Notes under the pieces: generated by a model
Databases searched by the model: none
Told to the model about the DNA's origin: nothing
The model's input: only the letters and a program-made list of their open reading frames with translations
Assembly: GCA_043819135.1 (NCBI GenBank)
Contig: JBDRFG010000079.1
Location: forward strand, 1-29,997
Length of the DNA stretch: 29,997 nucleotides
Direction of reading: 5' to 3'
Origin: Candidatus Eiseniibacteriota bacterium
GTDB taxonomy: Bacteria > Joyebacterota > Joyebacteria > Joyebacterales > Joyebacteraceae
Shown here: piece after piece, positions 881 to 10,300 of the stretch
Numbering within the stretch: position 1 is the stretch's first letter
Layout of the letters: every line of letters begins with the position of its first letter
Made by a program: the position numbers and the translations under genes

Positions 881-1008
881 GCCTAACGAGCGTATGCACC
901 CGACGAGCTTGGGTGTCACGGCGTCTGCAAGGGGGGCTGCCGCTTCGCGTCAGCCAGCACACCCCGCGCCAGCCTTGACGCTCGCGGCTGATACGCGGTC
1001 CGTTAGGC
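881..1008 (+). repeat. attC site 2
   Basis: GCCTAAC (881-887) ... GCGGCTGATACGCGGTCC GTTAGGC (1002-1008). Confidence 0.92.
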
Positions 1009-1046
1009 AACACGGATGACGGGGATGATGAAACGATCTTTCTTTG

Positions 1047-1137
1047 GGCGAGTTCTCTTCCAGGAGGATGCTGGGCTTCGTAGGAGTGCGTCCTTCCTTG
1101 ACTAGACGAGATCCTCGACGTCCCGCACTATCTCATG
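1047..1137 (+). pseudogene. Degenerate fragment of a membrane-protein gene (copy 1 of a ~90-bp diverged direct repeat)
   Basis: Aligns with 2019-2110. Frameshifted reading gives ...GFVGV.../L[P]*LDEILDVPHYLM. Confidence 0.5.
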
Positions 1138-1154
1138 TTCAAAGGTTGGTTTCA

Positions 1155-2027
1155 GTGAACAAGAGCAGCAGCGTCATCTGTCAACCTTGTCCAGCGTGCG
1201 AGGAAACGCGTCCTGAATCGTTCAGGGTGTGGTTCGATGGTTACGTCAAGCTCTATAGGTGTCTGAAGTGTGGCTTCGTGTCGCAGTTCCCTGGGCCCGG
1301 CGTGTGCACTGTCGTGACAGACTATGAAAATACCTGTTCGTTAGACTTCGTGAACCGGGGACTGGAGTTCCTGCATCCCGCGAGAACGCGTGTCCTGCAA
1401 GACATCGTTGCTCGCATAACCAAGGCCAAGTCCAGTGGGCGCCTTCTGGATGTCGGTTGCGGAGATGGGCACTTCCTGTGCTTATGCTCAGAGAAGGGCT
1501 TCATGTGCTATGGAGCGGAGAGTGGCAGGCGGCTCTCCGCATATGCAGCGTCAAAGAGTGGAGCACAAGTCACATGCGGAGCATACAGCAAAGGCATGTT
1601 CCCAGAGCACCATTTCGACGTCATCACCCTCCTCCAGGTGCTTGAGCATATGCCAACGCCTATCGCCGCCCTCGAAGCAGCACGCTACCACTTGCGGCCT
1701 GAAGGGATCTTGGTAATTGAAGTGCCATCTGTTCATTCGCCGCACTTCCTTGCGTACCGATGGACAAGAATCAAGCGATTCGTCAAACCTCCGTATGGGG
1801 TCATCTATTCACACTGCGGGTACTACTCTCCACGATCACTCACGACTCTGACAGACAGGTGTGGCTTCACCAAACTGTCTCTCGTTACGGGCCGCTGGCA
1901 GTACAAGTACTCGGGCTTCTTGAGGCAGGTAGGCAGAGCCATTGATCCATTGCTGAACATGTCAGGAATCGGCGGAATCCTGCTGATCGCACAGCCGCGA
2001 GTGACGTGCGGGTCATTAGGCGAGTGA
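1155..2027 (+). CDS. Class I SAM-dependent methyltransferase with N-terminal Cys4 zinc ribbon
   Basis: CPAC...CLKC; LLDVGCGDG motif I; FDVITLLQVLEH; LRPEGILVIEVP. Start is uncertain (GTG1155; ORF track uses 1044). Confidence 0.85.
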   Translation: MNKSSSVICQPCPACEETRPESFRVWFDGYVKLYRCLKCGFVSQFPGPGVCTVVTDYENTCSLDFVNRGLEFLHPARTRVLQDIVARITKAKSSGRLLDVGCGDGHFLCLCSEKGFMCYGAESGRRLSAYAASKSGAQVTCGAYSKGMFPEHHFDVITLLQVLEHMPTPIAALEAARYHLRPEGILVIEVPSVHSPHFLAYRWTRIKRFVKPPYGVIYSHCGYYSPRSLTTLTDRCGFTKLSLVTGRWQYKYSGFLRQVGRAIDPLLNMSGIGGILLIAQPRVTCGSLGE

Positions 2028-2110
2028 TTTTCTACGACGCTTCTGGTTTCGTAGCAGTGAGCCTCCTTCTTTGGCTGGACGAGATCCTTGAAGTCCCGCA
2101 CTATCTAATG
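2019..2110 (+). pseudogene. Fragment of a membrane-protein gene (copy 2 of the diverged repeat)
   Basis: Reads RRVIFYDASGFVAVSLLLWLDEILEVPHYLM and is cut off by the IS110 remnant. Confidence 0.5.
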
Positions 2111-2111
2111 G

Positions 2112-2402
2112 GAGCGCTTTGGCGTCAGCGCTATCGGTCTTGTTGCCGGTGACGTATGGTCTGACGCGATGTGGTGGCAGCAGGACGACGCGGTGTCCGA
2201 TGCTGCTTAGGGATCGTGCCCAGTGGTGTGCTGATCCGCATGCTTCGAGGAGCGCCGTGCCAGGCTTCTGTTGTGCGAAGAAGTTGAGGAAGCGTTCACG
2301 TGAGAGCCTGTGTCGCTCACGGACATGACCGGGGTGGTTGGAGACGGCGATCTCGAAGACGGACTTGGCGAGGTCGACGGCGTAGGTGGTATTGTGGTTC
2401 AT
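2112..2402 (-). pseudogene. IS110-family DEDD transposase, N-terminal ~97 aa only
   Basis: AVDLAKSVF, LLEACGSAHHWAR, LLPPHRVRPYV, NKTDSADAKAL are IS110 RuvC-like motifs. Homology ends at ~2112 and the C-terminal domain is absent. Confidence 0.88.
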
Positions 2403-2489
2403 TGGACTCCTCCTTCCTGATGGCACTCTGATGCCGGACGCGGCGTGGTACGATGATGCCTCTTGCCGCGGGAGGAGTCCATTTCATCA
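2112..2489 (-). mobile_element. Truncated IS110-family (IS1111-type, attC-targeting) element
   Basis: Subterminal IR (minus strand ATGGACTCCTCC, 2482-2471) lies 7 bp from the junction with attC L'' TATGCAGCCG (2490). An internal inverted copy at 2403-2413 overlaps the RBS. The transposase follows. Confidence 0.85.
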
Positions 2490-2599
2490 TATGCAGCCGA
2501 CGAGCTTGGCTGTCACGTCGGACTGCACCGCGGGCTGTCGCCCACGACGCACCCGCCGCGCCACCCTGACGCTCGCGGGTTATACGCGGTTCGTTATGC
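2490..2599 (+). repeat. attC site 3, interrupted (R'' lost at the IS insertion)
   Basis: Near-identical to attC1 from TATGCAGCCG to GTTATGC (2593-2599). Confidence 0.88.
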
Positions 2600-10263: not shown

Positions 10264-10300
10264 CATCCTCTAAGCCGTTGCCAGTCCTTTCTTGCGGTTC

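What the first reader, a model, noticed from the sequence alone, without database searches (positions are those of the whole stretch)
2112..2499. attC-targeting IS1111-type element with intact left end and candidate guide (seek/bridge) RNA beside its target
Seen: the IS110 transposase is antiparallel to the cassettes, and its end abuts the L'' box of attC3, 7 bp from the subterminal IR. An 11-bp inverted repeat (2403-2413 / 2471-2481) closes a 57-bp non-coding leader. On the + strand the leader contains CTGAT-gccgg-ACGCGG (attC right arm: CTGATACGCGG) and GCGT-N9-ATGC (attC left arm at the insertion point: GCGTATGC). Known: IS110/IS1111 elements use an element-encoded RNA to choose targets, and an IS1111 subgroup targets attC sites. 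Inference: the leader is a very compact guide RNA matched to this host's attC family. The matches are only 4-6 nt and could be chance.
Basis: partly seen in the sequence, partly recalled or inferred. Interest (0 to 1): 0.78.

Follow-up and report, generated by a model that had tools for sequence, protein, structure and literature searches.

The report
Dead jumping-gene end at integron site
This is the broken front end of a known kind of RNA-guided jumping gene that lands in integron cassette sites, and its real guide RNA, which sits at the other end in intact relatives, has been deleted; a second, unrelated RNA-guided element in the same genome hits the same sites five bases away and is the better lead.

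Summary
The sequence features are real, but the guide reading fails. 2112-2489 (minus) is the left end and first 97 codons of an IS1111-attC-type element. It sits at the L'' box of an attC site, as do 13 of 13 close relatives. The inner 11-bp repeat is the transposase ribosome-binding site, not an element end. In full-length relatives (86-93% identical) the guide lies in a 219-nt region after the transposase. Its two loops track each element's target (29 guide types, z 9.1, 0 of 5000 permutations). A deletion at a 7-bp microhomology (2111-2117) removed the guide and right end, so the copy is dead. The scan has noted similar dead IS1111 leaders in other genomes. Side finding: an unrelated IS110-group element (G000:C121, intact; relic at window 10265-10294) carries a left-end two-loop bridge RNA matching attC and inserts right after the R'' box (11 of 11 left and 11 of 11 right junctions). 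One earlier scan note reports such a class; my paper searches did not find it.

The parts
2490..2599 (+). Remainder of the attC site that was hit: L'' box at 2490-2496 through R' box at 2593-2599; its R'' box and spacer were lost with the deletion
   Evidence: repeat families D3/D6; blastn to attC2; empty-site loose ends at 2490
2483..2489 (-). 7-bp left terminal extension of the IS; with 2482-2481 it holds the predicted -10 box (TGAAAT, 2486-2481) of the circle-junction promoter
   Evidence: same 7-bp extension in relatives and ISPa25; 7/3-bp rule in PMC11187229; promoter spacing read, inferred
2471..2482 (-). Left subterminal inverted repeat (sTIR), 12 bp
   Evidence: matches the right sTIR of full-length L002, L004, L088
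2414..2470 (-). 57-nt 5' leader of the transposase mRNA, two hairpins; not the target guide
   Evidence: fold; compensatory pairs; no covariation with targets
2403..2413 (-). Inner copy of the inverted repeat, overlapping the GGAGG ribosome-binding site (2413-2409) directly before the start codon
   Evidence: inner copy within 30 nt of the start in 55 of 69 homologous left ends
2112..2402 (-). First 97 codons of a DEDD transposase (D10, E53, D90, D93 present; C-terminal domain lost); full-length relatives have 351-355 aa
   Evidence: residue roles from recalled family motifs
2111..2117 (.). 7-bp microhomology at the deletion joint between a cassette gene (+) and the transposase (-)
   Evidence: joint bridged by a 310-nt contig of run X2 with 0 differences
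2018..2117 (+). Truncated 5' part of a small membrane-protein cassette gene whose intact homologue is in L096
10265..10294 (-). 30-bp right-end relic of a second, unrelated IS110-group element, placed directly after an R''-like box; 29 of 30 letters match the intact copy on G000:C121

Best explanation
A dead left-end remnant of an IS1111-family element of the attC-targeting kind. The intact element (about 1.37 kb) has a left end, a short leader, a transposase gene, a 219-nt downstream non-coding region and a right end. It excises as a circle; joining the ends makes a promoter (-35 from the right end, -10 from the left end, 17-bp spacing; inferred). The transcript gives transposase mRNA and, from the downstream region, the seek/bridge RNA. 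One loop of that RNA pairs with the R''-spacer side of attC and the other with the L'' side, placing the element antiparallel to the cassettes at the spacer/L'' boundary (shown here by covariation, shown experimentally for ISKpn4 and ISPst6 in PMC11187229). In this copy a later deletion at a 7-bp microhomology removed three quarters of the transposase, the guide, the right end, the R'' box and the end of the upstream cassette gene. The 57-nt leader is the 5' UTR. Its outer stem pairs the left sTIR with the ribosome-binding site, most likely damping translation (inferred, untested).
For: 13 of 13 distinct close-relative left ends at the same L'' position; 3 of 3 complete ones (L002, L004, L088) continue on the right into spacer and R''. 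Their downstream loops match their own sites, including site-specific variants: L088 AACTAGC, L004 TAGCTGGC beside an R'' that reads CTAGC, L002 CAAA beside an L'' with TTTG. Anchored window scan over 29 guide types from 43 sites: downstream region z 9.1 and 7.7, 0 of 5000 permutations; leader family-wise p 0.32 and 0.10; in the 12 types with this leader hairpin z 7.1 against p 0.28-0.49. Non-attC relatives (L006-L008, L012, L013 group, L025) have reprogrammed downstream loops and the same leader hairpin. No downstream region or second transposase copy found in G000. Joint bridged in run X2.
Against: No RNA data. Kin share loops and targets, so the permutation p-values overstate independence. 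An unanchored test found no signal for either region (leader p 0.37, downstream p 0.21), so only the anchored scan has power. A left-arm-type split match of 9-10 letters persists in 9 of 9 relatives' leaders against some attC variant of the window. Run X2 may not be independent of the assembly. G000 is 92% complete, so an intact copy could be unassembled.
Confidence: 0.92

Rival explanations
1. The leader is a compact guide RNA matched to the host attC family.
For: Motifs present; joint shuffle P 0.011 against one attC; a left-arm-type match of 9-10 letters in 9 of 9 relatives; a few IS1111 elements have an upstream non-coding region (PMC11187229).
Against: P 0.097 once all attC variants are allowed; ACGCGG kept in 0 of 10, CTGAT in 2 of 10, GCGT in 0 of 10 relatives; ACGCGG lies in a helix with 2 compensatory pairs; ATGC is unchanged in L002, whose target lacks it, and is shared by non-attC elements; a downstream guide already explains the targets.
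Confidence: 0.03
2. The leader is more than a plain UTR: the GGCATC/GTGCC hairpin and inner repeat are a conserved binding site for the transposase (autorepression or end recognition), independent of target.
For: Hairpin in 34 of 69 and inner repeat in 55 of 69 homologous left ends, across several phyla; two copies of the hairpin in this lineage; stem letters conserved while the loop varies.
Against: Conservation may be plain descent; 9 of the 10 pairs in the two hairpins never vary among 8 distinct close relatives, so they say nothing for structure; no binding data. Compatible with the best explanation, not exclusive of it.
Confidence: 0.35
3. The truncation is an assembly chimera and the element is intact in the cell.
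For: Metagenome-type assembly in 174 contigs; the joint has a 7-bp microhomology; relatives in run X4 continue differently on both sides of 2111.
Against: A contig of run X2 spans 2062-2371 with 0 differences; no other piece of this transposase or its downstream region is found in G000; 7 bp is shorter than usual assembly word lengths (own knowledge). Even if true, the guide would be the downstream region.
Confidence: 0.05

Closest known systems
IS1111-attC group (ISPa25, ISKpn4, ISPst6, ISPa21)
   Same: sTIR with 7/3-bp extensions, insertion at the L'' end of attC antiparallel to cassettes, downstream seekRNA with the same two-loop frame and order as ISPa25 in L081; ISPa25 is the best plasmid hit.
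   Different: Only 49% identical to TnpPa25 over full length (L088); loops tuned to the host's attC family; likely host Ca. Eisenbacteria (titles of the closest named records; inference); this copy is truncated and lacks the seekRNA.
IS1111 seekRNA / right-end bridge RNA (PMC11187229, PMC11208160)
   Same: Relatives' downstream region: complement of the top strand first, then the bottom-strand match, as described in PMC11187229.
   Different: The flagged leader has no such loops and no covariation with targets.
IS110-group left-end bridge RNA (IS621 type), for the second element on G000:C121
   Same: Long left-end non-coding region, no long sTIR, a target-binding internal loop followed by a donor-binding loop whose left guide matches the element's own right end; NF033542 above cut-off.
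   Different: 452-aa transposase, about 29% identical to its best plasmid matches; its target is attC, which the papers I saw ascribe to the IS1111 group only.

Membership tests
IS1111 family | DEDD transposase related over full length | tested here: met
   97-aa remnant hits PF01548 weakly; full-length relative L088 (93% identical over the 97 aa) passes NF033542 at 332 bits
IS1111 family | sTIR of 11-13 bp with a 7-bp left extension | tested here: met
   2471-2482 and 2483-2489; boundary confirmed by empty-site ends at 2490
IS1111 family | Right sTIR with a 3-bp extension | tested here: inconclusive
   Deleted in this copy; present in L002, L004, L088
IS1111 family | Long non-coding region downstream of tnp encoding the seekRNA | tested here: inconclusive
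   Deleted in this copy and not found elsewhere in G000; present, 219 nt, in 3 of 3 complete close relatives
IS1111 family | Circular intermediate with junction promoter | not testable with these tools
   -35 and -10-like hexamers at 17-bp spacing across the predicted junction in 6 of 6 elements printed (read by eye); circle not observed
IS1111-attC group | Insertion at one fixed position of attC, in one orientation | tested here: met
   This copy and 13 of 13 close-relative left ends at the spacer/L'' boundary, antiparallel
IS1111-attC group | Monophyly with ISPa25/ISKpn4/ISPst6 | not tested
   No tree built; relatives at 57-60% identity to L088 (L006, L013) target non-attC sites while ISPa25 is at 49%, so attC targeting may have been gained or lost more than once
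seekRNA / bridge RNA (for the 57-nt leader) | [quoted passage not shown] | tested here: not met
seekRNA / bridge RNA (for the 57-nt leader) | Co-purifies with the transposase and is needed for movement | not testable with these tools
   needs bench work
IS110 group with left-end bridge RNA (second element, C121) | Long left-end region with target-binding and donor-binding loops; no long sTIR | tested here: met
   Consensus fold of 10 copies leaves both guide pairs in internal loops; left target guide matches 6-8 of 8 letters in 10 of 10, right guide 5-6 of 6 in 6 of 6 with both ends; ends show no long inverted repeat (read by eye from the alignment)
IS110 group with left-end bridge RNA (second element, C121) | RNA expressed and required for recombination | not testable with these tools
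   needs bench work

The most novel reading that the evidence does not exclude
The flagged leader is not novel, but these cassette arrays are invaded by two unrelated RNA-guided lineages that have converged on the same attC half-site five bases apart: the IS1111-type element (guide at the right end, inserting at the spacer/L'' boundary) and an IS110-group element (IS621-type bridge RNA at the left end, inserting right after the R'' box; intact on G000:C121:2765-4457, relic at window 10265-10294). The second would be an attC-targeting family outside the IS1111 group, with 84 protein clusters at 53-100% identity, and a natural pair for comparing the two guide architectures on one target.
Probability: 0.7. 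Interest if true: 0.5.

Novelty: new member of a known kind. Interest (0 to 1): 0.27.

Why it matters
The flagged stretch itself matters little: IS1111 elements that target attC and their downstream seekRNA are in print, and this copy is dead. It extends the group to a likely Ca. Eisenbacteria host and gives clean natural examples of guide loops tracking single-letter target variants. The side finding matters more. If the C121 element works as its anatomy says, attC has been picked as a target at least twice by RNA-guided recombinases with opposite guide layouts. That would widen the known parasites of integrons and let one compare seekRNA-type and bridge-RNA-type recognition on the same site.

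Tried and rejected
Unanchored best-local-match test: no signal for leader (p 0.37) or for the positive control (p 0.21), so uninformative; replaced by the anchored scan. In one search the loop pattern failed for 3 elements and lacked loop 1 for 3 more; one search took loops from the alignment for all 43. Dropped before the covariation count: 38 of the first 80 loci plus L081 set lacked an end, a full ORF or 10-nt flanks (42 kept, L088 added). Four sites returned by two different calls were counted once. L089's leader is cut after about 53 nt. Idea that the repeat 1049-1137 / 2021-2110 marks another mobile element that cut the IS: rejected, it is the 5' part of a cassette gene. Idea that the leader hairpin is a sigma-54 promoter on the other strand: rejected, spacing varies among relatives (by eye). 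Rfam on L088, L095, L006: only 3 chance-level hits. Metagenome pattern scan: 1 locus, cut inside the guide. Sequencing runs: no RNA holder listed; shares 0.19 or less. Second element: none in viral contigs or in 5 other genomes tried, which shows nothing about absence. Paper searches that did not find an IS110-group attC-targeting family or a study of the IS1111 leader: (listings only). No structure or complex prediction was run.

Full report
Observation. The window opens with an integron cassette array; attC-type repeats recur from 150 to about 10.9 kb. An ATG at 2402 on the minus strand starts 97 codons of an IS110/IS1111 transposase. The element's left end is 2489: contigs of empty sites in runs X2, X3 and X4 leave the window exactly at 2490 and continue into spacer and R''. 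With the 12-bp sTIR (2471-2482) the extension is 7 bp, as PMC11187229 gives for IS1111 elements.

What the element is. Searches of 61 genomes and of metagenome contigs added more. All 13 distinct left ends of close relatives sit at the same L'' position. Three are complete (L002, L004, L088): 1362-1374 bp, transposase 351-355 aa, 219 nt downstream, then a right sTIR and 3 bp, then spacer and R''. The best plasmid match is ISPa25 in a class 1 integron, 49% identical to L088 over full length. It overlaps the GGAGG site just before the ATG, and such an inner copy is found in 55 of 69 homologous left ends. I recall an internal repeat being described for this family, but no call confirms that (one search found nothing relevant).

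Why the copy is dead. Similarity to L088 stops at 2111. The plus-strand DNA before it is the 5' part of a small membrane-protein cassette gene whose intact form is in L096. The two share 7 letters at 2111-2117, the mark of a microhomology deletion (inference). It removed the rest of the transposase, the downstream region, the right end and the R'' box. A 310-nt contig of run X2 spans the joint without a difference; that run may not be independent of the assembly. No other copy of the transposase or of the downstream region was found in G000, which is 92% complete.

Where the guide is. PMC11187229 shows that IS1111 elements, among them attC-targeting ISKpn4 and ISPst6, make their seekRNA from the region after tnp, with the top-strand complement first; PMC11208160 predicts a right-end bridge RNA for most IS1111 elements. 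The relatives fit this. Two loops in a conserved frame match each element's flanks: AACTAGC and TGCTGTGCG in L088; TAGCTGGC in L004, whose R'' reads CTAGC; CAAA in L002, whose L'' has TTTG. Elements that insert elsewhere have other loops that match their own multi-copy targets (L006-L008, L013 group, L012, L025). Sliding 9-nt windows over 29 guide types from 43 sites gave z 9.1 and 7.7 at these two loops, 0 of 5000 permutations after correction for 440 tests. The same scan over the leader gave family-wise p 0.32 and 0.10, and 0.28-0.49 in the 12 types that share this leader's hairpin. Kin are not independent, so these values overstate, and an unanchored version had no power for either region.

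Against one attC the pair of split matches has shuffle P 0.011; against all attC arm variants in the window it is 0.097. In 10 relatives ACGCGG is kept in 0, GCGT in 0, CTGAT in 2 and ATGC in 10. ACGCGG is one strand of a helix, 0.95 paired, in which 2 of 7 pairs show compensatory change. ATGC belongs to a hairpin found in 34 of 69 leaders whatever their target. Against this reading: a left-arm-type match of 9-10 letters persists in 9 of 9 relatives, and CTGAT, GCGT and ATGC are only 0.37-0.52 paired in this copy. The persistent match is best explained by the leader's own self-complementary GCAT/ATGC, which resembles a palindromic attC variant.

How it most likely works. Shown by comparison: fixed insertion site, downstream guide, loss of that guide here. 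Inferred: joining the ends brings a -35-like hexamer to 17 bp from TGAAAT or TGGAAT, so transcription would start inside the left sTIR and the 57 nt are the 5' UTR. The fold pairs the sTIR with the ribosome-binding site at probability 0.99-1.0 whether the transcript starts outside or inside the repeat. That would damp translation, above all from read-through transcripts, as known for some other IS families (own knowledge). A role as a transposase-binding site is open.

A second element. A search of G000 for the C-terminal IS110 domain found an unrelated 452-aa transposase on C121, about 29% identical to its best plasmid matches and present at 83% or more in 6 of 30 related genomes. It is 1693 bp, has a long left end and no long sTIR. 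All 11 distinct left and 11 distinct right junctions lie in attC directly after the R'' box, five bases from the IS1111 site. The consensus fold of 10 left ends has two internal loops. The first matches spacer (6-8 of 8 letters in 10 of 10) and R'' (5-6 of 6 in 6 of 6 with both ends); the second matches the element's own right end (the script mis-picked the loop for L107 and L112, which I read from the alignment). A 30-bp relic lies at window 10265-10294. So an upstream attC-matching guide does exist in this genome, but in another element. Scan note e1-7778605, seen after I had found this element, reports an IS110-type element at attC in another genome; I did not check its data.

Literature seen. 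PMC11187229: parts 1-5 of 9 of the text and keyword passages; its supplementary figure 7, which shows the ISKpn4 and ISPa25 matches, was not seen. PMC11208160, PMC9229058, PMC11616780: passages only. Tetu and Holmes 2008, Post and Hall 2009, Partridge and Hall 2003: seen only as references. Searches listed no paper on an IS110-group family at attC or on integrons in Eisenbacteria; most subscription papers and ISfinder were not searchable.

Verdict. The flagged feature is a new, dead member of a known kind and the guide claim is refuted. Interest 0.27, most of it owed to the second element, which deserves its own follow-up.

Noticed in passing
G000:C121:2765-4457 (minus); loci L099, L107: Intact 1693-bp IS110-group element, 452-aa transposase, left-end two-loop bridge RNA matching attC R'' and spacer. 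11 of 11 distinct left and 11 of 11 distinct right junctions in G000 and relatives lie in attC right after the R'' box. One guide letter (C or T) matches the target in 10 of 10 copies, and L121 changes guide and R'' together. No permutation control was run.
   Followed up: partly
window 10265-10294; G000:C121:9487-9621: Two more right ends of that second element: a 30-bp relic fused to the inside of an attC in this window, and a copy cut by the contig end.
   Followed up: partly
window 1007-2117: Cassette 2 holds two degenerate copies of the 5' part of a membrane-protein gene (about 1026-1137 and 2018-2117) around a SAM methyltransferase ORF. A relative in run X4 covers 1000-2112 and continues without the IS joint.
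   Followed up: partly
left ends of L001-L081: A GGCATC/GTGCC hairpin with a variable loop in 34 of 69 leaders, across phyla and targets; beta-proteobacterial relatives have a different conserved leader with a G-rich motif.
   Followed up: partly
L089, L092, L094: Other truncated left-end remnants of the same IS1111 element at attC sites in related genomes; such debris is common in this lineage.
   Followed up: no
G000:C126:97-333 (minus); L105: Fragment whose best NCBIfam match is the integron integrase model TIGR02249 (E 1.5e-24, below cut-off as a fragment). attC arrays lie on at least ten other contigs.
   Followed up: no
window about 10340-30000: Recognisable attC repeats fade after about 10.9 kb while cassette-sized genes continue, as in an old, eroding array end.
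   Followed up: no
L006-L008: These non-attC IS1111 copies carry about 190 extra bases with an inverted-repeat structure between the guide region and the right end.
   Followed up: no
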